Position numbers and translations under genes: made by a program
DNA from: Centruroides vittatus
Taxonomy: Eukaryota
Direction of reading: 5' to 3'
Length of the DNA: 64,000 nt
Assembly: GCF_030686945.1 (NCBI RefSeq)
Contig: NW_027122708.1
Location: 5,930,248 to 5,994,247, forward strand
In this document: positions 3,421 through 56,640 of the stretch, piece by piece
How the letters are laid out: every line of letters begins with the position of its first letter
Position numbering within the stretch: the first letter of the stretch is position 1
The notes under the pieces: model-generated
Told to the model about the DNA's origin: nothing
Database searches by the model: none
The model's input: only the letters and a program-made list of their open reading frames with translations

Positions 3421-3755
3421 GACAAAACGAGAAAAGAAAACTCATCACAGATTGTTATTTAATATTATACAAAAGATTATTTTTAAAAATAGCTTTTTTA
3501 TATGCTTTACTATTAAATAATCGGCTAAAATGGTTTGTGATTTTACATTTTGATAAAATAACGTCTTTGGCCACCAGGAGTCCAGCGACCAACGCGCGGT
3601 AAAAGAAAACATTCAACGTTTCAAAAATATTTTGAAAGTGTTCGAAACTTTTCTGGATATTTACAGGTATTGATTTTTAATTAATAAGCCAATAAATTAA
3701 CATCGCTTTAAAATATAGAAATAATTCGAAATCTCTAATCAAAATTACAAAAAAC

Positions 3756-4002
3756 GGTTAATGTTACCCTAGGTATCGAAGATAGCGGCTCGTCTCCGAT
3801 TCCATCAATCAGAAGATGGAAGAATGGGGACGCACGTTCTAACCTAACCTAACCTATTCTAATAAATTACCATAATTATTAGCAACAAAATTATTAGAAT
3901 AGGATAGGTTAGATTAGAACGTTCGTCCCCATTCTTCCCTGTCTTCTGATTGATGGAATCGGAGACGAGCCGCCATCTTCGATACCTAGGGTAACATTAA
4001 CC
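3756..4002. mobile_element. Palindromic MITE, family A copy 1. Termini ggttaatgttaccctagg / cctagggtaacattaacc. Arms of about 100 bp carry ggctcgtctc and ggggacgc motifs plus (CCTAA)3, which is (TTAGG)3 on the other strand.
   Basis: The inverted arms are reverse complements of each other. The central loop attctaataaattaccataattatt is shared with the copy at 10479-10712. Confidence 0.75.
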
Positions 4003-4268
4003 CAAAAACATATAATCATTTGCTTTTTGTCCAATATTTTAATAAATCTTCTGAACAGCCATTTGTAATTTGCTATAAATTTTAAGCTTAAATTCTGCCC
4101 CAATTTGCATTTGACATTAAATTTTAATTCACGATCTGTATCCTTCTTGTTAATATAAAATGGAAGTCAATGTAAAGCCCGTAGGATAACGCGCCACTGT
4201 TTAGTCCCATCCTCTAGATTCTATTTGAAGTCTTATTTATGGATTGGACGATTATGCTTGTTTTTTGG

Positions 4269-4288
4269 ATATATATATATATATATAT
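4269..4288. repeat. (AT)n microsatellite
   Basis: atatatatatatatatatat. Confidence 0.8.
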
Positions 4289-4570
4289 GGAGGTTAGATG
4301 AGTCAAATTCCAAACCATTAAGAAAATAAACGTGAGGTTGCAGAGGGGATAAGACAGACCGGTACAGGGCGACGAGAGAAGCCAGACGACAGTTGAAAAA
4401 ATGCGGGAAAAAGACTAGACTGCGGTTGAAAAATGGCGCGAAAAAAAGAGATTGAGGACGTTGGAGACGGTTACCGACGCTAGAATATTTTGTCCTTCTA
4501 TTACAATTCCTATATATATAATACTATATATTGATTTTACTAATTTATTTAATCATTTTTCAGTGTAGCC

Positions 4571-7256: not shown

Positions 7257-8372
7257 ATTAGAACTTTTCTAAACGAAGGGTCCTTTCGTACTACTTCGTT
7301 TCAATTTTTCTCTAGATAGAAACCAACCTGGCTTACACCGGTTTGAACTCAGATCATGGAAACTTTTATAAGTCGAACAGACTTCCTATTATTGCTCTTG
7401 AGCAATAGAGGTAATTTAATCCAACATCGAGGTCACAAACATGTTTGTCAATTTGAGCTTTCAAAACATATTACGCTGTTATCCCTAAAGTAACTTATTT
7501 AAATTTCAAAAATTTTGGGTATTAAAATAATACTATCTTTAATTATCTAAAAGTGTTTTTCTTTCTGCCGCCCCAGCAAAACATATTCTTAATTTACTAA
7601 ATTTTCTTATGTAAAGTTTTATAGGGTGTTCTTGTCTAAAAGAGACATTTTAGCCTTCTTACTAAAAAGTGAAGTTTAAAATCAATAGTTAAGAAAGAAA
7701 TTTTCTAGTTTACCCTTTCATTCCAGTCTTAAATTACAAGACTAATTATTATGCTACCTTTGCACAGTCAAAATACCGCGGCCATTTATTTATACATCGA
7801 GCAGGGCTCATTTTTAATCATTTCAAAAAAATATGTTTTTGGTAAACAGACCAAAAATTTTAGACGAGTTACTTAACTTTTAATTGCTTTCTTAATTATA
7901 GATTAATTTTCTACTTATTTTAACATTATTACTATCATTAAATTATTCCATGGAAACTTTAATTAATTATTAGTTTATAAAACTAAAAATAACTTAATGA
8001 TAAAATTGAAGACAATCTTATTCCTCTAATAACAAATAATTATTTTTTAAACTTACATCTAATAAAGCTTGTCCTTTATTAGATAAAAATTTTCCAATCT
8101 TTGATGCTTATCTTAAAGAACCAGATATCAAATTAGGCGTTTAGCTTTTTACTTCAATAAATCAATTTACAATTACTTTAACACGTAAAAAATATTAATT
8201 TATAGCTCATAACTTTTCGGGAAAATTAAATCCTTTAATTAATTATTAAACCCTGATACAAAAGGTACGATATTCTCCTTTTTATATATTAAAAATACCC
8301 TTACAGTTAAGTTTTCTTCAATTTCAAACTATTACTAAAAAATGACTCCCTTCTTAATAATTTTCTAAAATA
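7257..8372 (-). rRNA. rrnL: Mitochondrial large-subunit (16S) rRNA, NUMT copy
   Basis: The 3'-domain motifs ccggtttgaactcagatcatg (7336-7356) and acgctgttatccctaaagtaa (7468-7488) are present as reverse complement. The 12S 3' end at 8441 fixes the upper bound. At about 1.1 kb it is shorter than a typical insect 16S. Confidence 0.75.
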
Positions 8373-18495: not shown

Positions 18496-19951
18496 TATGA
18501 GGCGTGTCCGGGAAGTAAGTACCGTTTTGGAAAAACTCGCATAAAAAATCTTTTTTCAAAACAAAATTTATTTTTACATGAAAGAGCATGTCGGAAACTA
18601 TCTTTCTACACAGTTACCACCATTGTTCAGACATTTGTCATATCGGGAAACCAATTTGTCTATACCCTCTTCAAAGAAAGATGCCACCAGTGAAGACAGC
18701 CACTGCTGAACATTGGTTGTTGCGTCGTCATCGCTGGCAAAGCGCCTCCCTCCAAAATCACGCTTCAAGTTCAAGAACAAATGGTAGTCTGCAGGTGTGA
18801 GGTCGGGGCTGTATGGCGGGTGATCAAACTGCTCCCAACCGAATTGTTGAATCATGTTTTGGGTGACACCAGCAGTATGGGGACGTGCGTTGTCATGAAG
18901 CAACACAATGCCTTTACTGGGACTTCCACGCCTTTTGTTTTGAATTGCATGGCGAGGTTTTCGCAATGTTTCACAGTATCGTTCTGCATTGATGGTTTCA
19001 CCTCTGGGAAGGAACTCAACAAGCAGAATGCCCTGTCTGTCCCAGAATACAGTATGGGAAATGTATGGATTAGTAGAAAATGTAGATGGATGAAATGGAT
19101 TAGTGGGAAATGTAGGTTTAGTAGCCGGTAAGTCATAAGACAGGTACGACATAATTAGGACGATGGGGGACGGCTGTCCCAGAATACAGTGCACATGATT
19201 TTTCGTGCTGACAATGTTGTTTTGAATTTGTGTTTTGTGGGGAACCATGAGTGCCTCCACTCCATTGACTGTTGTTTTGATTCTGGAGTGACATGACAAA
19301 CCCAAGTTTCATCACCGGTAACAATTTTGTTTAGGAAATCATTACCCTCTTCACTGTATCGGATAAGAAATGCCAAAGCACTTCCAAGTCGCTTCGTTCT
19401 GTGGACATCCGTAAGCATTTTGGAGACTCAATGGGAACACAATTTACGATAATTTAAGTGATTTGTGACAATCTCATGCAAAACAGTTTTTGAAATTTGT
19501 GGAAACTCATCACAAAGCAATCTTATTGTGAACCGTCTGTTTTCACGAATTTTCTCATTCACTTTTGCAACCAAACCATCATTGACAACAGAAGGCCGCC
19601 CACTCCATGCTTCGTCATGAACATTGTCCATCATTGAATTGTCAAACCCACTTTCTCACCATTCCATCACTCATTACATTTTCACCATAAATCTCTACAA
19701 GTTGACGATGAATTTCAACTGGCTTAACATTCTTTGCATTCAAAAACCATATTACAGAACGCACTTCACAGTCGACGGGATCGGCAATCGTCTTAAATAT
19801 TTTGAACGCTCACTAACATGTGAAAAAACAACACAATCTTTCATGGCGTCACTGGACTGACAATCAACCAGAAACACATATGCGCAGGCGCTGAACTGCG
19901 ATACTACTGCTGCGGTGGCAGTAGAACAAAACGATACTTACTTTCTGGACA
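18496..19951 (-). mobile_element. Mariner-like element of about 1.46 kb with 26-bp terminal inverted repeats tatgaggc(g/a)tgtcc(g/a)g(g/a)aagtaagta
   Basis: The terminal inverted repeats at 18496-18521 and 19926-19951 are reverse complements. The internal transposase ORFs carry mariner signatures. Confidence 0.8.
18598..19634 (-). pseudogene. Mariner transposase, frameshifted across three ORFs. N-terminal helix-turn-helix SGRPSVVNDGLVAKVNEKIRENRRFTIRLL; DD34D catalytic-domain motifs HDNARPHTA and HPPYSPDLTPADYHLF.
   Basis: Six-frame ORFs 19428-19634, 19155-19418 and 18598-19305. Signature mariner motifs are present. Several frameshifts make it non-functional. Confidence 0.8.
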
Positions 19952-22607: not shown

Positions 22608-23400
22608 AAGTTGTTGTTGTTGTTGTTATTATTATGTTGGGTTAAGTGAGATATACTCGGTTAACACCGGTGGCTGTGTACTATGCCGGACCAAAGTCAA
22701 GGCATAGTAACCAAAACAGAAATTAGAGAAGTGTATCAGTGTGTGTGTCTGTATTCAGGAATTTTCTCACAATATGACATGTATTCAATATAGTGGCCTT
22801 CTGTAGTGTGATGTATGTGTTTCTATTCAATTGTAATGTGCCCAGGCTTTTGTGTAGTGTGTGTGGTATGACACCTGTAGAGGAGAGAACAACAGGTACA
22901 ATAAGCACCCTATCCATCCTCCACAGATGCCTTATTTCCTGGGCAAGTTCAGTGTACTTGCTGACTTTTTCAGTGCATGCATTTTGCATATTGTGTGTTT
23001 GGAATGGATATGTCTATAATGTATGTGATTTTATTGTGTTTGTCAATGAGTGTGATGTCTGGTCTGTTGTGGTAAATTGTTTTATCTGTGATTATGGCTC
23101 TGTCGTAGTACATTTTGTGCGTGTTGCTTTCCAATACTGTCTGTGGAATGTATTTGTAGTACGGTTTGTGGATGTCTACTAATTTGTGTTTCTTTGCAAG
23201 CTCTTGGTGTATTATATTTGCTATTTGATTATGTCTGTGTAAATAATCTGTCTGTGCCAAGAGCTTGCAACCAGAGGTGATGTGTTGTATAGTTTCTGGC
23301 ATTATGTGACATTTTCTGCATGTGTCATTTGTGAGTGTTGCATCTTTGAGTATGTGTTTTCTGTAGTTTTTAGTATTTATGACCTGATCCTGTATGTTAT
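22608..23400 (-). mobile_element. 5'-truncated non-LTR retrotransposon copy. It keeps the ORF2 C-terminal region (CX2CX8HX4C motif CRKCHIMPETIQHITSGC followed by a conserved roughly 200-aa tail) and the 3'UTR, and ends in a (TAA)3(CAA)6 microsatellite tail.
   Basis: ORFs 22970-23548 and 22723-22989 are read-through-related (RPDITLIDKHNKITYIIDISIP, EKVSKYTELAQEIRHLW). The + strand shows (GTT)6(ATT)3 at 22608-22634, which is the tail in sense orientation. Confidence 0.55.
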
Positions 23401-25852
23401 TATTATTATTATTTAGAAAGAAATACAGAAGGATTAAAATAACTGTTGAAATATAGTTTGTCATAGGTAGCAAAAATCTGAACAGAGAACAAATAGTTAG
23501 AAACATTTCATCATTTTGAAACAAACTATGTTCCATATAATAATGCATTAAAAATTGTGGAATGCACTCTGTCCTTACCAGGAACTAATGCTGTGACTGA
23601 ATGCATTTAAGATTTATAATAGTATATATATTTATTTATATTTGTAAATTTTACATATGTTGAAATTTTAAAAAAATATAATACAATACAATTTTTGCAT
23701 TTTTTTGATGATAAAAGTTTGTTGCTCTAGAACAATTTTTTCAATAAGACAACCATTCCCCCCATCAATTTTGTCCCGCTTCACCAATGTAAAAATCTGG
23801 TGACCTTAATGTAAACACATAGAATTAGTCACTTATTTACAAATTATATTATAATTTAATTGCTGGAATAAGAGAATTAAAGTGGTTTTTCTATATTCTG
23901 TATACTAATATAACAAAATTGCAATGTTTTATTAAATTATTTGCTTTTTAATGTTGAATTTTATTATTATTGTAATATTTATTATGCAATTAGTATTTCC
24001 ATACAACTAAATTTCTTCCTTTATTTAAATTTTTTATTTCCAAAACTTAAATAAAAAAAATACTTTTTAAAAAATAAAATTGACTTACTACTATTCATTT
24101 CTTCTATGTGAATACTAGTTTCACCATTTATGACACCACTTGATTCATTATTCCTATGGTCTTTATCTTCAAAGCTATTATCACCAGATTCACTAATTTT
24201 CAAAAGATTTTAAAATTATATATTTCTGTAGTACATATCTACTATAGGCCAAGGGTTTCTGACTCCCACAATATTTTGCATAAATTCAAAACAGTCAAAA
24301 AATTTCACAAATATTAGTTGAATATATTTTTTGTGTGTACAGCAATAACTACTTATAGAAAAATATAAAATCTATATTTATGAAATTAAATAAAAAGTAA
24401 GTTTATAACATCTTTTCATGTAAATGTTTCTACTAACCTAAACAGTAATTTATATTTTAGGGCTTATCACATCAGTGAATAAATTTATAAATATAAATAT
24501 AAAACAAATTTCTTAAATTTATTTTATATTTAAGTTTACAATAGAATAAAGGAATTTTACAATAATTAAATCTAATATGTATACAATACACACAAAATGC
24601 ATTTCATAAGTAATATTAAAGAAACTAAATTTTATAATAGATATGTAGACAATTATTTCATTATACATAATATTATTATTTCCTTGGGATTTGATTGTAA
24701 AGATTCATACCACAATTTATTTGATGTAATGTTTCAGTCAACACTTCAGAGACTTCAATTGTGAGTATTACCTTTATCATTTAATGCCTAAAGTAGTGTG
24801 TTAATGACTATTGTTAACTATGTGTAGAACTATTCACAGCTAGCTTGGTTATAGAAAATATAAAAAAGATGGAATTTATTGTATGGCACTTGTGAGACAA
24901 CATCAGTTTCTTAATTGTGATGTCTTCATGGCTATTTAGGATTTTAATGTAACTTTTATGAATTTTTATCATTTAATCAGCCTGAAGATGATATAATAAC
25001 ATGACTATTGAAACATCAACTGAAGAGGGACTTTTCCAGAGTCCAAAATGCATTTTGGTTGTGTTGTACACATATTAGATTTAATTTTTGTAAAATTATT
25101 TTCTTCTTTTGTAAACTTAAATATAAAATAAATTTAAGAAATTTTGTCTTAATATACACTGGTGTGATAAATCCTAAAATATAAATAACAGTTTAGGTTA
25201 GTAGAAACATTTAATGAAATTAAGGGAAAAAAGCAATAAACAATAAAATCTTTTCAGGTAAAAAAAAATCTTTACTTAATTTTCTTTTTCTTTTTTTTTT
25301 TTGCATGAGACATTTCTAAACTTTTATTCTTAAGCTTTTATAAGTTTTGAGATAAATATATTATATTCCTTTAAAAATTTCAAATTCTATGGGGGAATTT
25401 GCCTCAAGTTATGATTCAGTTATATCTACAACAGAATTTTTTATTAAAAAGTCTTTTTTAATAAGATATGTTTTCTTAAATAATTTAGTATTATTGTACA
25501 CCAGTGATGAAACAATCATGAAACAAAATTCATTATTTATCAAATTTCATATAGAAACATATGTCTAATGAACTTCTTACAAAGTGACATAATAAATTTA
25601 TCGTTATTTTCAGATAAGACAAAATAACCAGAAGTAAAAAATATCAGAACTATTTTGTAACTGAAACCTTCAAATAAAATTGCAACAATTGAAATTGAAA
25701 TCATCTGCACTAAAAGTTCCAGTAGTAATAATGAAACAAGAATCAATACAGCAGAAGTTTGTAAATCTAGCATCTACAGAACCAGAGGGGTGTCAAATTA
25801 TCAATAATAATCTGGTTTACTGGCCATTTTTATATTTTTGAAAAATTTAATA

Positions 25853-32730: not shown

Positions 32731-33111
32731 TTATGCATAATGCTGTAGGTCAATATGTGTTAAACTCTTTGGCAATATAGTCAGTAGTGATTCTTTTACA
32801 CTCATGAATTCTCTGATCAATTCTTCTTTCACCATATCAGTCACTACAGTGGTTAGGCATCCAGAATGGTTGTTGAAGTTCAAATTCTCTCTCCCATTCT
32901 TGAATATTTGTACTAGTTGATATACATCTTCTTGACTAAAACAATTATCACCATACTGTGCTTTTATTTGGCAATAAATTTCAGCTGGCTTCATTCCCTC
33001 ACCATTCAAAAAATGAACAACACCACACTGCTTTTCAGTAGTGCAATTTAAAAGTGGTGTGACCATTTTGAAATTACACTGCCAGGTGCAGATGTTGCAG
33101 TGTTGCACCAT
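32731..33111 (-). pseudogene. Mariner-like transposase N-terminal helix-turn-helix fragment (EKQCGVVHFLNGEGMKPAEIYCQIKAQYGDNCFSQEDVYQLVQIFKNGRENLNFNNHSG...), truncated
   Basis: The six-frame ORF matches the N-terminal helix-turn-helix domain of mariner transposases (E.R.VI.F....G.....I...L...YG......STV.RW...F..GR......SGRP). It lies immediately next to the LINE 3' end. Confidence 0.6.
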
Positions 33112-33532
33112 GACAACTGTTTAATGCAAGTGGAAAGAACCATTATGGTTCACAGATTAGCAGATTTCTTTACATTCTAATTGTAAGAGCAGTTATTACA
33201 TTACACTTATTTATTAACTTTCTTTTTTGTATTTTTTCCAAAAAAATGTGTTTATATAAAGTAAAATGAGAAAGAGACAGATGAAAAATTTCTGTTAAAT
33301 TATGGTTTTTATAGTAGAAAAATATTCCATTGTATTTATACAAAATTAATGTAGACAAACTATATTTTACAAGGGGGTTACATTTACATTGTTTACTTGT
33401 TTTTTACTTTACATACTTTTGATTTTGATTTACACCTATTTTTCCGCGAATACATTCCAAACATTAATTTGAATCTTACAATTTTATTGTTCTATTTCAT
33501 TAATAATAACATGTTTTAATTCTTCATTAGTG

Positions 33533-36500
33533 TTAGTTTGTTTTGTTTTTATAAATGTCGATTATTTTACAAAAATAGTTATAAATTTTATATAAGTCTT
33601 TTTTACCCATTTTGTTGAAGTTTTTTAACAATTCTATTAGCGAATTGCATTTATAAGTTCGAGTTATGTCATAGTGTTCACGAATATCATTTAATTTTGG
33701 ACATTTTAATATTAAATGATAAGGTGTTGAATCATCGGAGTTACATAAGAAACATTTTGTTGATAAGCTTATGTAAGTGTTGTTAACATACAGCGAATTT
33801 TTATTTAAACGAAGTTGTGCTATAAAGCGTTTTACATTCAAGTTTACCGAATACAACATATATGATTGAACTGATGGTATTTTAAATATATCTAAGTACC
33901 ACGGATGATATTTACTGCTATGTAATGAGAACTGATCTTTGTTTATGGATTGTGCCATAGCTGAGTTTAAAAGTAGTGAGTAGCCTGTTTTCCAATCTTG
34001 AATGTTATCTTGAAATAGTAGTTCTGATACTCCAAAAGAGTTGAAGATAGTTTTTAATTTGTTATGCCATAGCTGTTTATTTTTTTGAAGTTTACTTTGC
34101 TTGATGTTTTCATGATATAGAGCAATCAAATTGTTGTCACTATTGAATTTGAGTCTGTAATAAAATTTAATGATTCGTTTTAATATGAACGGGAAAGACC
34201 ATATACGATTGGTTTCATGACGTAGTGCATATCCGGGTATTGTCCGTTCTAACTGAAATAATCTGCGTAGATAGTAAATATGGAATCGTTCTAATTTGTA
34301 GAGATAATCCAAGCTCCAAATGGGACTGGCGTAGAATATCATTGGATTAATAATCGAATTGTAAAGTTTCATGTGTATTCTTAAGTCAGAAGTTTTCAAT
34401 CTGCTGCATAAAAACAAAAGATTATCGATTGCTTGATTGACTTTATTGTTAAGTTTAGAAATGTGCGATTTAAATGTTAAGTTCCAGTCAAAATTAATTC
34501 CTAGGTAATTTATCTCATTGACAGTTTGTAGCAGGATATTTTCATGATAAATTTTTGTTTCGTTAACAGATATTTTACTGTTGTTCCGAAAAATAATTAT
34601 TTTAGTTTTACTTGGATTAACTGCTAAATATTTAGACTTAAAATGCGAATTTAATTGATTGATTTTCCTTTGGAGAGAAATTTTTGTCGGTGCTACCACA
34701 ACCAAGTCATCAGCAAAGAGAATATAATGAAATGCTTTATTGCCTATGAGTATACCATCGTTTACTTCAGAAAAAAGATGATCTATATCTTTCAAATAAA
34801 AGTTAAATAAATGTGGAGATAATGGATCTCCTTGAAGAATACCACGTGAATGCGTTAATGGTGGAAGAATGTTTTTACCGTGCTTGATCTTTATTTTATA
34901 ATTTTGAAATAATATTGATATTGTTCCTGTAAATTGAGAACTAGCACCACTCTCCTTAAGTTTTTGTTGTAAAAAAGGTACATATACTGAATCGAATGCC
35001 TTTTTAATATCTATAAAAGCAGCATACACTTTTCTATGTTTTTTTACGAGATATATTTGAATAATCATTAGCAAAGTAAATATCGCAAATTCGGTGCCTT
35101 TATTTTTTGTATAAGCAAACTGAAATTCTGCTTCTAACTCGTTGATTTTGATCCAATTTTGAAATTTTTTTGCAAGTATCGATGTAAAACATTTTCTAAG
35201 TGTAGATAACAAAGCTATAGGTCTATAGTTTTCTGGAGCCATCTGGTCTCCCTTTTTATAGATCATCGTCATGATTATGGAATTCCAAGATTCAGGATAG
35301 GACAATGTGCTGTACATAGCATTGAATATTTTCAATAATTTTATTTTAGATTCCGTTGGTAGCATTTTTAAGAATTTGGTTGGTATGTTATCATCCCCTG
35401 GGGTAGTATTGTTTTTTGTTTTTTGAATTACTTCGTCGAGTTCATTCATAGTCAAGTCAGCGTTTAAATAATCATCATAATAATTAATATTTCTTTCCAT
35501 TGGAACTTTTAAATTTTTTATAATGAAGCTTTGATAAAATTTCTTCCAAGTTTCGAATCTTATACAAATGTTAATATCTCCTAGATTAGCTTTTGGTCGA
35601 AATTTTCGGATAGTATTCCAAAATATTTTGCTATTATTACTATTATTTATTAAATTTGATTCAATTCTACAAAAGTAGTTTTTCTTTTTCGTCTTAATTA
35701 AGTTATTGTAGATTCGTTTGGAGTTTTTGTAATTAATCAAATTTTCTTTATTAGGATTTTGCCTGTAAATTTTTAAATCTTGTTGCTTTCGCCGTTTTTC
35801 TTTGTAACAATCTGAATCATACCAGATTTTTTTATTTTTATTTTGCGCGTATTTGTTATCCTTGTTTGATATTATATAATCATTCATGATATTCATCATT
35901 ATTTTGTATACCTCTTCACAGTTATTATTAGTTACTTCTAGCATATTTTTAAACCGATTTCCAATTTCGGACTCATAACTAGCCAATTTGTACTTTATCT
36001 TGAAGTTGTTGTTATATATATAATCCGAATTCTCAAAAGGAAATAAACGGAATTTTGCTATTGTAGGAAAATGATCTGAAATATCAAAATTCGTAGTCTG
36101 AAATTCTACACAACAATCTAAGAATAATTCAGAGCATATTGTGAAATCTATGGTCGAAGCACCCGTATTGGTCAAGCAAGTATGTTCAGCTGGAATATCC
36201 TGTTGAATTCTGCCGTTAAGAAGAAACAATCTGTGTTCTGTTAGCAACTCGATAAAGTTTTTACCCAATCTGTTGGTTTGTTTATCTTTCGAAAGACGTT
36301 TATTAGATATATTGAAATTGGCACCTTTATATTTTGAATCTATTAACTCACCAATCCTTGCATTAAAATCTCCCACTACCAAAATGAGCGGAGAAATATG
36401 ACTCCAACTTTCTAATGTTTTAAACATATTTTTTAAAGTACTTAGATCATCAGGCAGAATATAAGCAATTAATAATGTTATTAAATTATTCGTTTTATTT

Positions 36501-36814
36501 ACCAAAGTAGGCTTCTGTAATGAGATAAGAAGTAGCATATAATTGTTGAATTTTTTTATGTCAATTATTTTACCAAGGTTCTTTTTTATAAGGATACATA
36601 TACCTCCACTTGGACGGCCTGGACCTGTAGGTTTTTGTGCTTGAATCGATTCCACTATAAAGTTATTAAAAAATTTTGTTTTATAATACAAATTCGAAGT
36701 AATCCAAGTTTCAGTAATTGCTAAAATATCCGGATCGTATTTAACACAAAAATTATTTATTAGTGACGTTTTATTTTTTATTCCTTGGCCATTCCAGTTA
36801 GCAATGGAAACCAT
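33533..36814 (-). CDS. LINE ORF2 polyprotein of 1093 aa. N-terminal apurinic/apyrimidinic endonuclease (DILAITETW), reverse transcriptase (FADDLVVVA box) and C-terminal Cys motif CFLCNSDDSTPYHLILKC.
   Basis: Uninterrupted ORF starting with ATG. The domain order and motifs are those of LINE ORF2. Confidence 0.85.
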   Translation of the reverse strand: MVSIANWNGQGIKNKTSLINNFCVKYDPDILAITETWITSNLYYKTKFFNNFIVESIQAQKPTGPGRPSGGICILIKKNLGKIIDIKKFNNYMLLLISLQKPTLVNKTNNLITLLIAYILPDDLSTLKNMFKTLESWSHISPLILVVGDFNARIGELIDSKYKGANFNISNKRLSKDKQTNRLGKNFIELLTEHRLFLLNGRIQQDIPAEHTCLTNTGASTIDFTICSELFLDCCVEFQTTNFDISDHFPTIAKFRLFPFENSDYIYNNNFKIKYKLASYESEIGNRFKNMLEVTNNNCEEVYKIMMNIMNDYIISNKDNKYAQNKNKKIWYDSDCYKEKRRKQQDLKIYRQNPNKENLINYKNSKRIYNNLIKTKKKNYFCRIESNLINNSNNSKIFWNTIRKFRPKANLGDINICIRFETWKKFYQSFIIKNLKVPMERNINYYDDYLNADLTMNELDEVIQKTKNNTTPGDDNIPTKFLKMLPTESKIKLLKIFNAMYSTLSYPESWNSIIMTMIYKKGDQMAPENYRPIALLSTLRKCFTSILAKKFQNWIKINELEAEFQFAYTKNKGTEFAIFTLLMIIQIYLVKKHRKVYAAFIDIKKAFDSVYVPFLQQKLKESGASSQFTGTISILFQNYKIKIKHGKNILPPLTHSRGILQGDPLSPHLFNFYLKDIDHLFSEVNDGILIGNKAFHYILFADDLVVVAPTKISLQRKINQLNSHFKSKYLAVNPSKTKIIIFRNNSKISVNETKIYHENILLQTVNEINYLGINFDWNLTFKSHISKLNNKVNQAIDNLLFLCSRLKTSDLRIHMKLYNSIINPMIFYASPIWSLDYLYKLERFHIYYLRRLFQLERTIPGYALRHETNRIWSFPFILKRIIKFYYRLKFNSDNNLIALYHENIKQSKLQKNKQLWHNKLKTIFNSFGVSELLFQDNIQDWKTGYSLLLNSAMAQSINKDQFSLHSSKYHPWYLDIFKIPSVQSYMLYSVNLNVKRFIAQLRLNKNSLYVNNTYISLSTKCFLCNSDDSTPYHLILKCPKLNDIREHYDITRTYKCNSLIELLKNFNKMGKKDLYKIYNYFCKIIDIYKNKTN

Positions 36815-36868
36815 TTGATTATTCTTTATGACTTTGTTATGTTGCGTATATTTTTGCTTAACATGATA

Positions 36869-37843
36869 TCAACTGTCTGTATTTATTTGATTACTATAAG
36901 GACGAAAATTATTTACATAAACCAATTTGCTCAATTTTAGGCTATATGTTATTTTTTCTTGGTTAATCGTTAATATATCATTACGGAGTTTAACTTGGTC
37001 TTTTTGTTTTCGTAATTCATGAAGTATTGGGAGTAAATTTTTCTTTCTTATCCTTGAGTTTTTAGTCAAATCTGGGGATATTTGCATATCTTCCCATTCT
37101 TCTAATGCGTTTTTTTGTTGTTTCTTTTGAATAAAGGTATAGAAAAATTTATCACGAAGTTGCTTATTGCTGAATGTTATTCTTACTGTTGTATTAGGTT
37201 TCTTAGTTATTAAGTTTGTTTCTGTTATCTCAGTTTGGGCTATATCGTGAATGTTTAGTACATTAGTCATAAAGTTATATACTTCTAACGTAGATATGGA
37301 TTTCGAGCTTGGATATTTGTATACAATTATTTTTTTATAATTATAATCATTAATTAAAGAGTCTATTTTAAATTGCGTTAGTTCATTTTCACTTTTTTGA
37401 TTTTCTAGTTGTTGTTTTATATTTTTAATTTCTTCCTCCATATATATCTGTCTTTCCTTAGTCTCACGTATATCTTGACGTATTCGTTCTACGTCTTCTT
37501 TTATATAGACCATTTGTTCTAACAGTTTATCATTTGAAGCATTTATTAAATCTGATATTTTAGTCCATAGAAGTGCAGTTGTAGTGTCAAGTTGACTTGC
37601 TGGATTAGTAAGAAGGCTTGAATTAATATTAGGTGACTCACCTGTTGAGCCTAATGAATTCTGCTGACCAGGTTCCATATTTTGATTCGAGAATTCTTTT
37701 GTTCCTTCTTGTGAATCACTTTTCGGTTGTGTTCCGTAATCCGTAATGAGTTTGGAGCTTGAAGTGCTTGGTTGAGCTTGTTTGTTCTCTGTCCTCGTTC
37801 TGGTCAGTGGAGGTCTTCCACGCTTGACTGGAGATCTTTGCAT
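36869..37843 (-). CDS. LINE ORF1 protein of about 324 aa from the first ATG. Basic N-terminus, long coiled-coil (IKEDVERIRQDIRETKERQIYMEEEIKNIKQQLENQKSE) and a C-terminal putative RNA-binding region. There are no CCHC zinc knuckles, so it is of the L1-like type.
   Basis: The six-frame ORF 36869-37885 uses a non-ATG start. The first ATG is at 37841-37843. Confidence 0.7.
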   Translation of the reverse strand: MQRSPVKRGRPPLTRTRTENKQAQPSTSSSKLITDYGTQPKSDSQEGTKEFSNQNMEPGQQNSLGSTGESPNINSSLLTNPASQLDTTTALLWTKISDLINASNDKLLEQMVYIKEDVERIRQDIRETKERQIYMEEEIKNIKQQLENQKSENELTQFKIDSLINDYNYKKIIVYKYPSSKSISTLEVYNFMTNVLNIHDIAQTEITETNLITKKPNTTVRITFSNKQLRDKFFYTFIQKKQQKNALEEWEDMQISPDLTKNSRIRKKNLLPILHELRKQKDQVKLRNDILTINQEKITYSLKLSKLVYVNNFRPYSNQINTDS

Positions 37844-38524
37844 ATTATTATTTTTTTGTATTATTGCTTTTTCCTTTACCTTCACTTAGTTAGTGTTAGT
37901 TTAAACTTGTTTAATAATAAGTTAATCAAATAAACAGTAATTCACCACTTCGCTGCACAAATGAAAGGTTCACAGAAAAAGTCACTCGCAGCGCCCGACA
38001 AACTATATTTTTATATATAGATATATGGATAAAATATATTTTCTTTCTCAAAAAAATATTTTATTTAAATGTTAAATTACATATTGTGTTGATTTAACTT
38101 TTTCACTTTCTTTATAAATATATAGTAAAGGAATTTTATATTTAAAGTAACTTTTAAAAAAAAGACACAAATATAAGAAATGCTAAAAATTTAATCATGT
38201 TTTTTGGAATAAATATAATTTATTTAACTAATGCTATTGTTGAATTTATGAAAGAAAGTAAATGAGAACTGTTAAGCTGATGACTCCACAGTTTATTTTA
38301 ACAGATATTTTATTTTTAAATCTATCCATTGAGATTTAAGAGATAAGTTATTTAAGATTTGTATAAATATCATATAGATATTAATACCCTTTGTTAAAAT
38401 TAATTTATTCCATTTACATTCTTTATCCCTTCTGCAATTATTTTAGTTTTGATATCTCAAAAAATTATACATTTAACATATTTATGTAGTAATTTCTCTA
38501 AAATATTAAAATAATAATAAATGA

Positions 38525-42262: not shown

Positions 42263-42812
42263 TTATCTTTTCTTCTTATTTACTTCTATACTTAACTTTA
42301 ATAACAAGCAGTACATGTTTACATCTTTAATTTCCACCGTACAACCTTGAACAGCATGATTATTGTTATCTTCACAATGATATTGAATAATTCCACCAAG
42401 ATAATCCTGCCAAGTTGTGGAATCAACACTAGCGACCAAAGGGCCATGAAATGCCATTAATTTTAGCATTTCTTCTTCTGATCCTTTTAAATCTTCACAG
42501 GTATAATTAAATTTTAATTCTATTCCTTTTTTTGGTCTTATGGCTTTACAGTTTGTCTCTTTGTCAGTTAAAGGATATTGTTTTTCAGTTAAAATTTTCA
42601 CTTTATTCTCATACATCCAGTCTAAGACCTCAAAAGTATCTCCACCATCATAACCACAGTTTGTTCCAGTTGCACAATCTATTACTTGCTGCACATTCAA
42701 TTCTACAAGTTCACCTGTCTTTAAAGCATTCATACTTTCTAATGTTTCTACAGTACTAAACGTCCAACATGCACCACATTCCTTCTGACTTTTCACTGGA
42801 GTAACAATTCCA
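42263..42812 (-). pseudogene. Papain-family (C1A, cathepsin-L-like) cysteine-protease fragment. It covers the mature-domain N-terminal roughly 170 aa (PGIVTPVKSQKECGACWTFS...DCATGTNCGYDGG...NHAV) with no propeptide and no intron, and is frameshifted at its 3' end.
   Basis: The conserved Q19 and C25 region QKECGACWTFS, the GCxGG-like block and the His region are recognisable. The copia RT fragment abuts it in-frame upstream. Confidence 0.6.
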
Positions 42813-43443
42813 GGTTTCCTCCTGGCTTTATATATTCATTTTCACTCTTCTTTCTGTATATCCACTTCACATCAATTACCCTTTTGTCTTTGGGAGGCTT
42901 GCTTACAAGTGTCCATGTATTGCTTATCACAAGACTCTCCATCTCAGAATTCATTGCTGCTTTCCATTTCTTTGAATCATCAAATGTCATTGCCTCCTGA
43001 AAATTTTCTGGAACCGTAGCATCACAGTAATTTACACTTATACAGTAATAACCAAATTCTTCATCAAAATGGAGTGGATGTTTAATTAGTCTTCCTGATC
43101 TTTTTCCTTTCTTCTTTTCTTCATCATCTTTTATCTCATCATTACTATTTTCTTCATGTGTTTTGTCCTTTTCCAAGTCTTTTGTCATATCTTTTTCTTT
43201 CTGATTTGTATTAGTGGAATCTTCTTCTTCGTTCTCCTTTGTTTGGTCTGAATCCTTTTGTCTTTCTTCCTTATCTTCATTCTTTTCCTCTTCCTCATTT
43301 TTGAATCCACACAAAGTTACATCTTCTTCTATTATGTCACAGTGTCTAGCCATTATAACTCTGCTATTCACCAATACTCTATATCTGGTGTCTGTATATC
43401 CAAGTAAAATTCCAACTTCCATTTTCTTGTCCCACTTCCATTT

Positions 43444-44136
43444 TCATTTTTCTTCTGGAATTCTTATAAATACTTTACTTCCATACATTTTTAGATTTTT
43501 TACTGATGGCTTCCTTTTGAAAAATATTTCATATGGCATTTTTCTCTCAATGGTGTTAGTTAAGGTTCTGTTTTTAAGATATGCAGCTGTTTTAATTACT
43601 TCTGGCCAAAATCTTCTTTCATTCTTTGCTTCTGATAAGAGACATCTCCCCATATCCATTAATGATCAATTGTATCTTTCTGCAGTTCCATTTAGTTCAT
43701 GCACATATGCTGGACAAGGTTTTATTATTATTCCTTTTTCTTTTGCAAACTTAAAAACTCTTGCATTCATATACTCCTTCCCATTGTCACATCGCAGTTC
43801 CTTTATCATCTTTCCAGACAAGTTTTGTATTTCATTAATATACTGCACTAAGCATTCATATACCTCATCTTTTGTCTGGATACAATAAATTTTAACTATT
43901 TTGTTATAGTCATCTATGAAGTTTAAGAAATATTTTTCTCCAAGATTTCCTGTAGTTTGATGTGGTTCATTTAAATCTGTATGTACAATCTCTAATATGT
44001 CTTCTGCTCTTCTCCTGTTGTTATGAAATGGTAAGTTATGCATTTTGTTTTCAATACATGTAGCACAATTTAAATATTCTGGTTCAATCTCACTGGGTAG
44101 TCTGTCTAATGATTCATTTTTACACATTATTTCCAA
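43444..44136 (-). pseudogene. Copia integrase core (HTDLNEPHQT...FIDDYNKIV...LRCDNGKEYMN...PCPAYVHELNGTAERYN and its continuation), frameshifted
   Basis: The rve-domain DDE pattern H..D / D / E is present in ORFs 43666-44136 and 43444-43659. Confidence 0.75.
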
Positions 44137-44542
44137 GTTGTTAAAATTGATATGTCCAGTTGTTTTCTACGTAGTTTTTCTTTTATAGTCATATTGCTTT
44201 TACTCATGTTTGCTTGTGATTTTTTTTCATTGATATAACTTTTCATTTTATATAGTTTATCCTCTTTATTGCAACAGCTATCAGCCTTCCATATGGGTTG
44301 TATATTTTGGAGAATTTCCCTCTTGAAACAACTGAATGTTTGTCTGTGATTTTTGAATAACTTAACAAATTTGCTTTCATATCTTTTACAAAAAAAAAAA
44401 AAAAAACATTTTCCAATGTCACCTCAGAATTTTGTCCACAAACTGGGAAACAAGTTTTAATATTACCAACTTTTGTAGCTTCTAATATTCTTCCATCATC
44501 AATTTTTACAATATAATAAGAAATGCTTACTGGAACAAAAAA

Positions 44543-44687
44543 ATCAGAAATTAAATCTATTACACGCCTTTAAAGTATCCAGCATACTGTTAAATTTTCA
44601 TAAGAACGTTTTCGATCACTTTTAGAGATCTTAAATTTAACAGTATGCTGGATACTTTAAAGGCGTGTAATAGATTTAATTTCTGAT
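44543..44687. mobile_element. Hairpin MITE of about 145 bp inserted in the copia gag-integrase region, with 55-bp inverted arms
   Basis: atcagaaattaaatctattacacgcctttaaagtatccagcatactgttaaattt ... is the reverse complement of the right arm. Confidence 0.65.
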
Positions 44688-44977
44688 TTTTAATCAATTT
44701 TTACTTTTACTGATTCCTTCAATGTCTCACAGGTTTCAAAATACTCATCAGTGTTAATAATATGGTCTGTGTAACCACTACCAAGTAACCATTCTATTTC
44801 ATCTTTCCCTGGCTTTTTGTTTTTACTTGTTTTATAAGTATTGTTTGCAATGGTAACCTGAAAACTATTTCCTTGATATTCATGTATGCATTGATGATAA
44901 TTTCCTTATCCTCTCTGAAAGTTTCTGGCATTGAACAATCCATGTCCTCGATAAACAGAAAAACCACGACCTCCACC

Positions 44978-45724
44978 TCAGTTTTCAACTTCAGAACGAC
45001 AATTTCTTTTTAAATAGCCAGGTTTACCACAGCTGTAACATTTCAACTTATTCTGAAATGATGACCTGGCTTCAGCTCGAAATACATTTGATCTATCATT
45101 TGACTCTTCATTAGAATTTTCCTCGGCACTTTTTAACTTTATTTTGCTTTTCAGATAGTCAACAGTTCTCTCCTTTTCTGGTAAAACATCTATTAAACCA
45201 CCAATATGACTATAATTCTGTGGTAGCAATTTTAACATGTAGTTTAATTTTTCTTGCTCTGATATTATAGCACCTGCCTGCTTTAATTCATTCACAGCTT
45301 TTTCAAATGCGTTGAAGAATAAGCATACATCTGAATAATTTTTAAATTTGATACTTTCGAGGTTATGTTGGCACACAATTTGCAGAGCTGTTGACTTTTT
45401 CAGATACATTTCATCAAACTTTTGGATAATTTCATAAGCTGTATCGAGTTTGCTTATGTATTCTAGCTGTTTGTTAGTTATTCCACTGTAGATATAGTTA
45501 GTTGCCTGTATATCTCATTTGTCCCATTCATCATCGTCAGATTTAATTTTAGCCCTCATTACCACATCTTTACACTCTTTGAACTGTAGAAACTTGAACA
45601 TACATAATTTCCAGTTACTATAGTCTGCTCCATCAAATATTGGAATATTAATATCACTGTTTTTCACTGCCATTACCACGTGTGCTCTTTCTTTGTTTTC
45701 TTGAACTAATTTAACCTCTTTCAC
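44978..45724 (-). pseudogene. Copia gag in two ORFs. The N-terminal UBN2-like region reads IPIFDGADYSNWKLCMFKFL. The C-terminal zinc knuckle reads CYSCGKPGYLKRNC.
   Basis: Motifs recognised in ORFs 45515-45724 and 44978-45409. Confidence 0.75.
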
Positions 45725-55589: not shown

Positions 55590-56640
55590 TATATAAAGGT
55601 GATAATAAAGATAAGACTATTCCAGGGTCATATAAGCCCATATGTTTAGTACCATTGCTGGGCAAAATATTTGAATGAATCATTAAAAACAGACTAGAGT
55701 CTGTAATACAAAGGTATAATAATGAGTACCAGTATGGCTTTAAAAATCAGTGCTCAAGAGATCGTTAATAAGTCTTGTAGCAAATACATTTTGGGTATAT
55801 TCTTTGATATAAAAGGTGCATTTGATCACCCATGGTGGCCCTCCATTCTAAGGGAGCTTTTATATAGGAAATGTCCTGGTGAATTATATAGATTACTAAG
55901 GGACTATTTATCATACAGAGGGGTGATGTATGAGGAGGGTGACCAAAAGATATACAAAAATGTAAATGGGCCATCCCCAGGGATCGTTCTTGGACCTGTC
56001 CTCCGGAATCTGGTGTTTGATGGTTGCCTCAGGGTTTTAAATGAGAATTGCATAGAGTATGTTGCTTATGCTGATGATCTGATTTTACTTATATCCAATA
56101 ATTTGAGAAGTGAGCTAGAGTCCCATGGTAAAATGTGGGTGATGAGGTTACAGAAATGGCTTGTGGCTAATAAATTAGAATGTCGTCTTATCCATTGTCT
56201 GTGGATAAGATGGTGCCAATATTACTAAAAGGTAGCTTGTTGAAAGAATGGCTGCCAAGAGTCATACTGAATGATAAAGTAATAAAGATAGCTGACTCAG
56301 TAAAGTATCTTGGTATTATTATTGGGGATAGTATGAGTATTACACCACATGTCAACTATATCACAGAACAGTCTATTAAGAGCTTCTGCCTATTAAAGCA
56401 GAATATAAGAATAGGGCTCCAGTTTCACAACTCTTTGTATATTATATAAGAGTTTGTTTTTAAGTGTTTTAAGTTATGGTATTTTAGCATGGCATGACCT
56501 TTTAAAAAATTATCATAAGGTCAAATTAGAAAGAACTCAAAGAATGGTTCTATTGATTTTAACTAAGGCATATAATACTACATCTACGGTAGCTCTTCAG
56601 GTGATAAGTGAGCTTTTACCTATAGATTTAGTTAAATAAA
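55590..56640 (+). pseudogene. 5'-truncated, frameshifted non-LTR retrotransposon RT fragment (YKPICLVPLLGKIFE, FDIKGAFD, GPSPGIVLGPVL, YADDLILLIS, then downstream SVKYLGIIIGD and YGILAWHDL blocks)
   Basis: Reverse-transcriptase motifs 1 to 7 in order across ORFs 55722-56228, 56180-56449 and 56454-56639. Confidence 0.75.

What the first reader, a model, noticed from the sequence alone, without database searches (positions are those of the whole stretch)
33400..38030. Apparently intact LINE (ORF1 plus 1093-aa ORF2) that is possibly still active
ORF2 spans 3.3 kb and has no stops. It contains an apurinic/apyrimidinic endonuclease at the N-terminus, all RT blocks including FADD, and a CX2CX8HX4C knuckle. 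ORF1 is intact, coiled-coil-containing and lacks zinc knuckles, which is L1/Tx1-like and uncommon in insects. ORF1 and ORF2 are in the same frame 52 nt apart, so a stop-codon readthrough or reinitiation mechanism is conceivable. The other LINE pieces in the window (22608-23400 and 55590-56640) are fragmentary and look like different families. Neither the 3' tail nor target-site duplications could be defined by eye.
Basis: partly seen in the sequence, partly recalled or inferred. Interest (0 to 1): 0.65.

Follow-up and report, generated by a model that had tools for sequence, protein, structure and literature searches.

The report
Intact scorpion LINE with leaky-stop junction
This is a complete, coding-intact copy of a jumping gene (a LINE retrotransposon) in what is almost certainly a scorpion genome; it is ordinary as a kind, but in it and in all its distant relatives the two genes are joined in one reading frame by a single stop codon, which suggests the second protein is made by reading through that stop.

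Summary
On the minus strand there is a full-length 4,628-bp LINE (33369-37996) flanked by an exact 15-bp target-site duplication. ORF1 is 324 aa and ORF2 is 1,093 aa. All endonuclease, RT and CCHC catalytic residues are present.

- The ORF1-ORF2 gap is 54 nt, not 52.
- The ends and the duplication can be defined.
- The host is a Centruroides-like scorpion, not an insect.

ORF1 is L1-type (coiled coil, RRM, C-terminal domain) by fold and by sequence profile. That type also occurs in the CR1, L2 and R1 clades, so it does not assign the element to L1/Tx1. I could not resolve the RT clade.

Comparison with roughly 80%-identical copies in C. sculpturatus gives dN/dS of 0.23 for ORF1 and 0.13 for ORF2, so the lineage is under purifying selection. 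Current activity cannot be shown, because copy number and transcripts were out of reach.

In 9 of 9 related elements (21-29% ORF2 identity), ORF1 and ORF2 share a frame and are separated by one TAG or TGA, never TAA. The spacer is open, and in five elements no AUG precedes the catalytic Glu. This points to stop-codon readthrough producing an ORF1-ORF2 fusion. That mechanism is inferred, not demonstrated.

The parts
37997..38011 (-). Target-site duplication, upstream copy in element orientation (AAAATATAGTTTGTC on the element strand)
   Evidence: It is an exact 15-bp direct repeat of 33354-33368 (D13). Only 1 of 20,000 shuffles reaches 15 bp. It abuts the point where homology to the C. sculpturatus copy A begins.
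37844..37996 (-). 5' UTR (153 nt), starting GGGCGCTGCGAGTGAC
   Evidence: Homology with L009 copy A starts within 3 nt of this end. The UTR alignment contains several indels, unlike the coding parts and the spacer.
36869..37843 (-). ORF1, 324 aa plus TGA stop. N-terminal disordered part with invariant MQRSPVKRGRPP (37604-37843), coiled coil (37382-37603), RRM-like domain (37064-37351), C-terminal domain (36908-37063)
   Evidence: ORF and sequence. The AlphaFold model has a helix at 81-154 followed by beta-alpha-beta domains. The top nine Foldseek hits are the human L1 ORF1p trimer, E 1.6e-6 to 2e-4. The family profile hits L1 ORF1p at 7.9e-8. dN/dS is 0.23.
36869..36871 (-). The single in-frame stop codon (TGA) between ORF1 and ORF2
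   Evidence: It is conserved as TGA in the C. sculpturatus copies. Relatives carry TAG (7) or TGA (2) and never TAA.
36815..36868 (-). Inter-ORF spacer: 54 nt, 18 open codons in the ORF1/ORF2 frame. It contains one out-of-frame ATG (36862-36864) heading a 12-codon mini-ORF
   Evidence: Its length and openness are kept in L009 copies A and B, although synonymous sites are near saturation (pS 0.83) and the UTRs are indel-rich. The other two frames of the stretch up to the WN motif carry 1 and 4 stops.
33533..36814 (-). ORF2, 1,093 aa plus TAA stop. AP-endonuclease (36050-36814), helical linker (35474-36049), reverse transcriptase (34415-35473), C-terminal region (33536-34414) with CCHC knuckle (33701-33754)
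   Evidence: Pfam. All 48 invariant columns of the 17-sequence family alignment are present, including E35, D149, N151, D223, H248, D602, ADD 701-703 and CCHC. Deviations at conserved sites are nearly all shared with the C. sculpturatus copies. The model aligns end to end with human L1 ORF2p, E 8e-36. dN/dS is 0.13.
33369..33532 (-). 3' UTR (164 nt), ending ...AATGTAAATGTAACCCCCTTGT with no poly(A) run
   Evidence: The terminal motif AACCCC(C)TTGT recurs at the 3' end of L009 copy C, and similarity stops after it. There is no significant predicted structure.
33354..33368 (-). Target-site duplication, downstream copy
   Evidence: D13.

Best explanation
This is a recently inserted, full-length, coding-intact copy of an autonomous AP-endonuclease-type LINE. 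It belongs to a family resident in Centruroides scorpions.

Shown:
- The element's limits, its 15-bp target-site duplication and its intact domains.
- An L1-type ORF1 protein.
- Multi-copy relatives in C. sculpturatus.
- Purifying selection on both ORFs along the lineage.

Inferred from established LINE biology:
- The element is transcribed from an internal promoter in the 153-nt 5' UTR.
- ORF1p trimerises through its coiled coil and coats the RNA.
- ORF2p nicks an AT-rich target. Here the bottom strand reads ...ATATTTT/TATATA.
- ORF2p then reverse-transcribes from the non-poly(A) 3' end by target-primed reverse transcription.

Inferred from comparison (the distinctive step):
- ORF2 is reached mainly by occasional readthrough of the single in-frame stop at the end of ORF1. 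This would give a minority ORF1-ORF2 fusion protein, like retroviral Gag-Pol.
- The fusion could enter ORF1p trimers through its coiled coil, which would set the ORF1:ORF2 ratio and keep ORF2p on its own RNA.

In this particular family an AUG sits exactly at the start of the endonuclease, so reinitiation may operate alongside readthrough.

The confidence given (0.55) is for the whole statement including readthrough. The identification as an intact, TSD-flanked LINE of a selected scorpion family stands at about 0.95 on its own.
For: Identity and integrity.

Host and multi-copy family:
- ORF1 homologues are at 91, 74, 71 and 51% identity, all from Centruroides.
- Three partial copies at 78-82% nucleotide identity lie in C. 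sculpturatus locus L009. They confirm both ends of the element.

Selection: dN/dS is 0.23 for ORF1 and 0.13 for ORF2 at dS 0.65-0.83. The aligned C. sculpturatus ORF2 copies B and C have no stops.

Readthrough, from nine elements (the window plus L001-L008; L001-L008 share 21-29% ORF2 identity with the window's ORF2):
- In all nine, the ORF2 frame runs open back to the ORF1 stop. There are 0 stops in 328 codons, against 19 and 47 in the other two frames.
- Spacers measure 21, 21, 42, 54, 54, 54, 63 and 132 nt, all multiples of three. The L002 spacer could not be measured from a called start.
- The junction stop is TAG in seven and TGA in two, never TAA. ORF2 itself ends in TAA in 5 of 9.
- In L004-L008 the first in-frame ATG lies 69-176 codons downstream, beyond the WN motif and the catalytic Glu. 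An AUG-initiated ORF2 in those elements would lack an active endonuclease.
- Within Centruroides the 54-nt spacer has kept its length and openness, while the UTRs accumulated indels.
- The conceptual readthrough product is colinear across the junction with annotated C. vittatus proteins P0088 (37% identity over 867 columns) and P0003 (30% over 1,003 columns).
Against: - No direct evidence of readthrough exists: no ribosome profiling, fusion protein or reporter assay.
- The window's context, TGA-U, is not a known leaky context (from general knowledge of readthrough signals).
- No significant RNA structure follows the stop in the window (z = -0.3) or in most relatives.
- This family has a conserved ATG at the first codon of the endonuclease, so termination-reinitiation is possible. 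Human L1 ORF2 translation is reported to be AUG-independent (PMC5009743 and PMC5972666), so the lack of an AUG in relatives does not by itself exclude reinitiation.
- P0088 and P0003 are gene-model predictions that could have spliced out a stop. Their DNA was not inspected.
- Activity of this copy is not shown. The closest database ORF1 is only 91% identical.
- The nine elements came from one homology search, and their phylogenetic independence is assumed from their divergence.
Confidence: 0.55

Rival explanations
1. The element is the same, but ORF2 is translated by termination-reinitiation at its own AUG 54 nt after the ORF1 stop. This would resemble what is proposed for mammalian L1 (63-nt spacer) and shown for SART1 (UAAUG). 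On this reading the shared frame is a historical leftover in this family.
For: ORF2 begins with ATG directly before the endonuclease core (MVSIANWNGQG), and this ATG is conserved in the C. sculpturatus copies. L001 and L003 also have an ATG there. TGA-U is not a recognised leaky context, and no structure is predicted downstream. Reinitiation is the mechanism discussed for L1 and SART1 (PMC5972666).
Against: Reinitiation does not predict a conserved shared frame, spacer lengths in multiples of three, absence of in-frame stops, or avoidance of TAA. All of these are observed in 9 of 9 elements. Five relatives have no usable ATG. The spacer contains an out-of-frame ATG (36862-36864) that scanning ribosomes would meet first.
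Confidence: 0.3
2. The copy is intact only because it is young. The family is no longer mobile, or this copy carries a disabling missense or promoter change. It would then be a well-preserved fossil rather than an active element.
For: Only one copy is in the window. The nearest database ORF1 is 91% identical, not near-identical. The exact ORF2 protein is not on record in the assembly index. About a dozen of the substitutions at conserved ORF2 sites are private to this copy, for example Y636F.
Against: The duplication is perfect at 15 of 15 bp. There are no stops or frameshifts in 1,417 codons of 30%-GC DNA. All catalytic and invariant residues are kept, and the private changes are conservative or lie at variable positions. 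Long-term purifying selection shows the lineage was propagating.
Confidence: 0.3
3. The junction stop is removed at the RNA level: A-to-I editing turns UAG or UGA into UGG (Trp), as at the hepatitis delta virus amber/W site. Edited transcripts would then encode a fusion.
For: Only TAG and TGA occur at the junction (9 of 9). These are the two stops that a single A-to-I change converts to Trp. TAA, which would need two edits, never occurs.
Against: No double-stranded structure around the stop is predicted. The same TAG/TGA bias is expected from ordinary readthrough, because UAA is the tightest terminator (general knowledge). There is no data on editing in these hosts.
Confidence: 0.05
4. The region is not a mobile element but a host gene pair, or a domesticated retroelement gene.
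For: Both ORFs are under purifying selection. NCBI annotates the homologues as ordinary 'uncharacterized proteins'.
Against: An exact duplication lies at the homology boundaries. Multiple truncated copies sit at an unrelated locus, inside an intron of a UGGT gene in C. sculpturatus. The structure is a typical LINE, with 5'-truncated and 3'-anchored copies.
Confidence: 0.02

Closest known systems
Human/mammalian LINE-1 (L1 clade)
   Same: The gene order is the same: 5' UTR, ORF1, short spacer, ORF2, 3' UTR. The ORF1 protein has coiled coil, RRM and C-terminal domain (best fold and profile matches). The ORF2 protein has AP-endonuclease, helical linker, RT, C-terminal region and a CCHC motif, and it aligns end to end with L1 ORF2p. 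The target is AT-rich and ends in TTTT.
   Different: ORF2 identity to L1 is only about 17%. The RT alone scores nearly as well against R2. No member of the ORF1 family hits Pfam Transposase_22. The element has no poly(A) tail. The CCHC spacing is CX2CX8HX4C. The spacer has a single stop and is open, whereas the L1 spacer is described as crossed by reinitiation. Placement in the L1 clade by RT phylogeny was not testable.
CR1/L2-lineage LINEs with Transposase_22-type ORF1 (Metcalfe & Casane 2014, PMC4120745)
   Same: They have a type II ORF1 outside the L1 clade. The 3' end is non-poly(A). Some members of these clades and of this group carry 2A peptides (Odon et al. 2013).
   Different: From memory, CR1/L2 ORF2 proteins lack the C-terminal CCHC knuckle and have a GVPQGS-type motif where this group has G(V/I)(R/L)QG(C/D)xLSP. 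That is a lead, not a test. No reference sequences were available for a tree.
Gammaretrovirus Gag-Pol readthrough (e.g. MuLV UAG)
   Same: A single in-frame stop lies between the RNA-binding structural gene and the polymerase gene. There is no separate start for the polymerase in most relatives. TAG is preferred. Three relatives read TAG-GGG-xGT-GGx-CAx-GG just after the stop, reminiscent of the MuLV sequence UAG-GGA-GGU-CAG-GGU (from memory).
   Different: No pseudoknot or other stimulatory structure was detected. The window's own context is TGA-TAT. The element is a non-LTR element with no protease to separate the fusion.
SART1 (UAAUG coupling) and other described ways of making LINE ORF2p
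   Same: They address the same problem: producing a little ORF2p from a bicistronic RNA.
   Different: SART1 overlaps its stop and start. Here 21-132 nt of open frame separate them, and most relatives have no AUG. A 2013 review of non-LTR protein biogenesis lists coupling, reinitiation, IRES and 2A but never mentions readthrough (PMC3894237).
2A-containing LINEs (L1Tc/Ingi, Rex1, L2, L2A-1_NVe, CR1; Odon et al. 2013, PMC3708506)
   Same: Relatives of this ORF1 begin with canonical xIExNPGP motifs (P0087, P0089, P0093, P0094, L005, L007, P0003).
   Different: The window's element has no 2A. Its ORF1 starts exactly where the post-2A protein would start. In the published cases the 2A sits at the N-terminus of ORF2 or of a single ORF, with one inactive exception in ORF1.

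Membership tests
AP-endonuclease-type non-LTR retrotransposon (LINE) | AP-endonuclease domain with catalytic residues, upstream of the RT | tested here: met
   Pfam Exo_endo_phos at residues 6-248. E35, D149, N151, D223 and H248 are invariant across 17 relatives. The profile hits L1 endonuclease at 1e-15.
AP-endonuclease-type non-LTR retrotransposon (LINE) | Non-LTR-type reverse transcriptase with an intact active site | tested here: met
   RVT_1 at 1.5e-29. D602 and F-A-D-D 700-703 are present. The best PDB matches are L1 ORF2p and R2.
AP-endonuclease-type non-LTR retrotransposon (LINE) | Target-site duplication, no terminal repeats, dispersed copies that are often 5'-truncated | tested here: met
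   The duplication is 15 bp. Three partial copies at an unrelated C. sculpturatus locus share the 3' terminus or the 5' start.
L1 clade (sensu RT phylogeny) | RT domain groups with L1 references in an RT tree (RTclass1/Repbase criterion) | not testable with these tools
   No labelled reference set could be reached. AFDB libraries are not installed. The RTclass1 paper and the Odon supplement are not held. Three protein searches returned no named LINE references. Only L1 and R2 are in the PDB, scoring 299 and 221 bits.
L1 clade (sensu RT phylogeny) | Type II ORF1p (coiled coil, RRM, C-terminal domain) | tested here: met
   The feature is not exclusive to L1 (PMC4120745).
L1 clade (sensu RT phylogeny) | Poly(A) or A-rich 3' tail | tested here: not met
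   The element ends ...AACCCCCTTGT directly at the duplication. C. sculpturatus copy C has the same terminus. Up to four A's at the junction are ambiguous between tail and duplication.
Tx1 clade | Sequence-specific insertion into a repeated target | tested here: inconclusive
   The flanks of the window copy and of L009 copies A and C share no sequence. Only three junctions were seen.
Programmed stop-codon readthrough (Gag-Pol type) | A single in-frame stop between upstream and downstream coding regions, conserved among diverged relatives | tested here: met
   This holds in 9 of 9 elements plus the C. sculpturatus subfamily.
Programmed stop-codon readthrough (Gag-Pol type) | The downstream protein has no independent initiation codon | tested here: inconclusive
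   Met in L004-L008 (first ATG at +69 to +176 codons). Not met in the window, the C. sculpturatus copies, L001 and L003, which have an ATG at the start of the endonuclease.
Programmed stop-codon readthrough (Gag-Pol type) | A leaky stop context or a stimulatory RNA structure 3' of the stop | tested here: inconclusive
   TAA is avoided (0 of 9). No significant minimum-free-energy structure was found, and the 3' contexts are heterogeneous. Pseudoknots were not searched.
Programmed stop-codon readthrough (Gag-Pol type) | Detection of the extended or fusion protein, or of ribosomes past the stop | not testable with these tools
   This needs Ribo-seq, a reporter assay or mass spectrometry.
Currently active LINE family | Several near-identical full-length copies, insertion polymorphism, transcripts | not testable with these tools
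   The source genome is not in any searchable DNA collection.

The most novel reading that the evidence does not exclude
The window's element belongs to a widespread, so far undescribed LINE lineage found in scorpions and in many unidentified eukaryotes in soil and other metagenomes. This lineage would make its endonuclease/RT as an ORF1-ORF2 fusion by programmed readthrough of a single TAG or TGA. That is a retrovirus-like Gag-Pol strategy in a non-LTR element. Some members combine it with an N-terminal 2A peptide, and some have the stop replaced by a sense codon, giving a single polyprotein.
Probability: 0.45. Interest if true: 0.7.

Novelty: new variant of a known kind. Interest (0 to 1): 0.45.

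Why it matters
How LINEs make a small amount of ORF2 protein from a bicistronic RNA, and how that protein stays on its own RNA, are long-standing questions for L1. A LINE group in which ORF2 can only be reached through the ORF1 stop codon would give a simple, testable answer: a rare ORF1-ORF2 fusion incorporated into ORF1 trimers. It would also provide a natural system for comparing readthrough, reinitiation, 2A and full fusion within one lineage.

For genome annotation, the finding has two practical consequences. These elements may be annotated as ordinary host proteins; the Centruroides ORF1 homologues carry names such as 'MAD1-like' and 'paramyosin-like'. The window's host should also be treated as an arachnid rather than an insect.

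If the readthrough inference is wrong, what remains is an ordinary young LINE copy.

Tried and rejected
1. Assigning the RT clade failed.
- Three large protein searches returned only unnamed metagenome proteins and 'uncharacterized' Centruroides or Patella proteins.
- The AFDB fold libraries were unavailable.
- The RTclass1 paper and the Odon supplement holding the reference FASTA are not held.
- The PDB contains only L1 and R2. The R1-clade TRAS1 endonuclease matched poorly (E 0.009, against 1e-15 for L1 endonuclease), which argues weakly against R1.

2. Finding more copies failed.
- The exact ORF2 and the P0096 and P0003 look-ups found nothing.
- A protein-pattern scan of the metagenomes found nothing.
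- A scan with the 19-nt 5' end gave 11 chance matches with no homology.

3. The search for a readthrough-stimulating hairpin found no significant z-scores. The 3' UTR also shows no significant structure.

4. Pfam Transposase_22 membership of ORF1 was not met for any of 18 homologues. Only coiled-coil families hit.

5. The literature search for LINEs with a single in-frame stop found nothing relevant in the held library. I recall plant LINEs (Arabidopsis Ta11/ATLN type) being described this way, but I could not verify it.

6. Selenocysteine decoding of the TGA, and an intron spanning the stop, were considered and dropped. No splice donor precedes the stop, and no evidence supports either idea.

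Full report
**Observation**

The region holds two long ORFs on the minus strand. ORF2 is 33533-36814 (1,093 aa). ORF1 is 36869-37843 (324 aa from its first ATG; the 338-aa ORF listed by the tool starts at a bacterial-type GTG). Pfam finds an endonuclease/exonuclease/phosphatase domain at residues 6-248, RVT_1 at 520-775 (E 1.5e-29) and a weak zf-RVT match over the CX2CX8HX4C motif. ORF1 has no Pfam domain.

The sense strand is 41% A and 29% T, so a stop is expected every 12 codons. The chance of 1,093 open codons is about 1e-41, and the two other frames of the ORF2 span contain 96 and 121 stops. The ORFs are therefore real.

The gap between the ORF1 TGA and the ORF2 ATG is 54 nt, not 52. The two ORFs share a frame, and the 18 spacer codons contain no further stop.

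**Ends**

An exact 15-bp direct repeat, GACAAACTATATTTT, lies at 33354-33368 and 37997-38011. Only 1 of 20,000 shuffles of the two 80-bp end windows gives a 15-bp shared word. The element is thus 33369-37996, 4,628 bp:
- 5' UTR, 153 nt
- ORF1
- spacer, 54 nt
- ORF2
- 3' UTR, 164 nt, ending ...AACCCCCTTGT with no poly(A) run

Related copies confirm both ends. Homology with one C. sculpturatus copy starts within 3 nt of the 5' end. Another copy ends with the same AACCCCTTGT, after which similarity stops. The primer strand implied by the duplication ends in TTTT (bottom strand ...ATATTTT/TATATA), so the target is AT-rich and L1-like. This rests on one insertion.

**Host and family**

Outside scorpions, the best database match to ORF2 is 29% identical, from a JGI metagenome contig.

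ORF1 gives close matches only in bark scorpions:
- C. vittatus: 91% identity, same length of 324 aa
- C. sculpturatus: 74% and 71%
- C. vittatus: 51%
- weaker matches in the same two species

A 21-kb stretch of C. sculpturatus scaffold KZ494329.1, inside an intron of a UGGT gene, carries three partial copies 78-82% identical in DNA to the window's element. The window therefore comes from a Centruroides-like scorpion, not an insect. The family is multi-copy in that genus.

No second copy lies in the window. The two other LINE fragments are unrelated at E 1e-3.

**Integrity and selection**

In a 17-sequence ORF2 alignment, all 48 invariant columns are present in the window's protein. They include the endonuclease residues E35, D149, N151, D223 and H248, the RT residues D602 and ADD 701-703, and C1021, C1024, H1033 and C1038.

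Of 148 well-conserved columns the window differs at 38. Most of these differences are shared with the C. sculpturatus copies, so they are old and tolerated; about a dozen are private to this copy. None touches a catalytic residue.

Nei-Gojobori estimates between the window and the C. sculpturatus copies:

| Region | dN/dS | Codons |
|---|---|---|
| ORF1 | 0.23 | 316 |
| ORF2, whole | 0.13 | 941 |
| ORF2, RT | 0.115 | 343 |
| ORF2, endonuclease | 0.16 | 248 |
| ORF2, C-terminal | 0.05-0.10 | 155-303 |

dS is 0.65-0.83. Whether this copy or family is active now could not be tested.

**ORF1**

An AlphaFold model from five Centruroides sequences has mean pLDDT 68. The folded part scores above 80. 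It shows:
- a disordered N-terminus, residues 1-80
- one long helix, 81-154
- a beta-alpha-beta-beta-alpha-beta domain, 167-259
- a helix followed by a small beta domain, up to residue 310

The top nine Foldseek matches in the PDB are all chains of the human L1 ORF1p trimer (E 1.6e-6 to 2e-4, about 200 aligned columns). A profile of 18 ORF1 homologues finds human L1 ORF1p (7.9e-8) and mouse L1 ORF1 (1.3e-5) as its best specific PDB sequence matches. No member reaches Pfam Transposase_22.

ORF1 is therefore of the L1 type (type II). According to Metcalfe and Casane, that type also occurs in CR1, L2 and R1 clade elements (PMC4120745). It does not by itself place the element in L1/Tx1.

**ORF2 and clade**

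The ORF2 model (pLDDT 80) aligns over its whole length with human L1 ORF2p (E 8e-36). The family profile matches L1 ORF2p in one stretch covering endonuclease, linker and RT (299 bits), against 221 bits for R2. The endonuclease profile matches L1 endonuclease (1e-15 to 1e-12) far better than the R1-clade TRAS1 endonuclease (0.009), but only a little better than bacterial exonuclease III.

More distant protein hits often carry RNase H domains. The element has no poly(A) tail.

I could not reach any labelled set of LINE reference RTs, so the clade stays open. L1-like architecture is shown. L1 or Tx1 membership is not.

**The ORF1-ORF2 junction**

I fetched the contigs behind eight distant ORF2 homologues (21-29% identity; soil and other metagenomes and one sequencing run). 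The results:
- In every one, the ORF2 frame runs open upstream until it meets the ORF1 stop codon.
- Over the nine elements there are 0 stops in 328 codons between the ORF1 stop and the conserved WN motif of the endonuclease. The other two frames have 19 and 47 stops.
- Spacers to the called starts are 21, 21, 42, 54, 54, 54, 63 and 132 nt, all multiples of three.
- The junction stop is TAG seven times, TGA twice and TAA never. The ORF2 terminal stops are TAA five times.
- In five elements the first in-frame ATG lies 69-176 codons downstream, past the catalytic glutamate. In L005 the WN motif itself lies upstream of the start the gene caller chose.
- Within Centruroides, the 54-nt spacer has kept its length and openness at near-saturated synonymous divergence, while the UTRs collected indels.
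- The conceptual readthrough product of the window aligns in one colinear block, across the junction, with two annotated C. vittatus proteins: P0088 (37% identity over 867 columns) and P0003 (30% over 1,003 columns). These are gene models and could have skipped a stop.

Taken together, this pattern is what programmed stop-codon readthrough predicts, and it is not what reinitiation predicts.

Against readthrough in the window itself:
- The context is TGA-TAT.
- An ATG sits exactly at the start of the endonuclease and is conserved in the sister subfamily.
- No significant structure follows the stop.

I put readthrough at about 0.55 for this element and higher for the group as a whole. Reinitiation at the ORF2 ATG is the main rival.

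Reviews in the held library list SART1 stop-start coupling, L1 reinitiation, IRES and 2A as ways to make LINE ORF2p. One review of non-LTR protein biogenesis never uses the word readthrough. From memory, some plant LINEs have been described with a single in-frame stop, but I could not verify that here.

**Verdict**

The finding is real and, as a kind, ordinary: a young, complete copy of an undescribed scorpion LINE family with an L1-type ORF1.

Beyond the ordinary is the group-wide single in-frame, non-TAA stop between ORF1 and ORF2, often with no ORF2 start codon. This makes a Gag-Pol-like fusion strategy the best reading.

- Novelty: new variant of a known kind.
- Interest: 0.45.
- The two things that would change the assessment most are a proper RT-clade assignment and a readthrough assay or ribosome-profiling trace across the junction.

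Noticed in passing
P0087, P0089, P0093, P0094, P0003; L005:3-1160; L007:590-1597 (relatives, not the window): Several ORF1 relatives begin with a canonical 2A 'StopGo' motif: AGIEQNPGP, GGVEPNPGP, DIETNPGP, DIESNPGP. The motif lies just before the conserved SP..KRGRP stretch. The window's ORF1 starts (MQRSPVKRGRPP) exactly where the post-2A protein would begin, and it has no 2A upstream. 2A at the N-terminus of a LINE ORF1 has been reported only once, as an inactive case (L2A-1_NVe; PMC3708506).
   Followed up: partly
P0088 and P0003 (Centruroides vittatus RefSeq proteins): These are annotated as single polypeptides that run from an ORF1-like part straight into the endonuclease and RT. P0003 also has the N-terminal 2A. 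Either some sister families are true single-ORF polyproteins, or the gene models skipped a stop. Their DNA could not be fetched.
   Followed up: partly
L003:943-980, L005:1164-1200, L007:1601-1640: Three distant relatives read TAG-GGG-xGT-GGx-CAx-GG immediately after the ORF1 stop (peptides GTGRN, GRGQG, GCGQG). This resembles the purine-rich sequence after the MuLV gag UAG (from memory). No pseudoknot search was possible.
   Followed up: no
window 37808-37843 (-): The ORF1 N-terminus MQRSPVKRGRPP is invariant in the five closest Centruroides homologues (P0086 has T at the sixth residue). It contains an AT-hook-like RGRP core, which could bind AT-rich DNA or act as a nuclear localisation signal.
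   Followed up: no
L009:8157-18946 (C. sculpturatus KZ494329.1): Three partial copies of the sister subfamily lie head to tail within 11 kb of a UGGT intron: element nt 4-1555, 55-4019 and 1887-4474. Copies A and B are about 98% identical in ORF1. This may be a local duplication, a nested insertion or an assembly artefact.
   Followed up: partly
window 7310-7642 and 7699-7859 (-): Two fragments match the bacterial-type large-subunit rRNA model (131 and 68 bits, model positions 1790-2647). They are most simply a nuclear copy of mitochondrial 16S rRNA.
   Followed up: no
window 2284-2461 (-): A full-length U2 snRNA match (63 bits, gathering threshold 46).
   Followed up: no
window 18598-19305 (-) and 32731-33111 (-): These are mariner-type transposase remnants. 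The first hits Transposase_1/DDE_3. The second is a helix-turn-helix-like N-terminal ORF lying 240 bp beyond the LINE's 3' duplication, so the LINE may have landed in or next to an old mariner.
   Followed up: no
window 42263-45409 (-): A Ty1/copia-type element (gag, integrase, start of RVT_2) directly abuts an ORF with a papain-family cysteine protease domain (Peptidase_C1, 5e-28, 42263-42796). This may be a host cathepsin exon interrupted by the element, or a captured fragment.
   Followed up: no
window 22970-23548 (-) and 55722-56228 (+): Two other LINE fragments are present: a C-terminal piece with a CX2C...H...C motif, and an RT piece (RVT_1, 4e-15).
   Followed up: partly
window 36862-36864 (-): An out-of-frame ATG lies 4 nt after the ORF1 stop. 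It opens a 12-codon mini-ORF that ends before the ORF2 ATG. It is absent from the C. sculpturatus copies.
   Followed up: no
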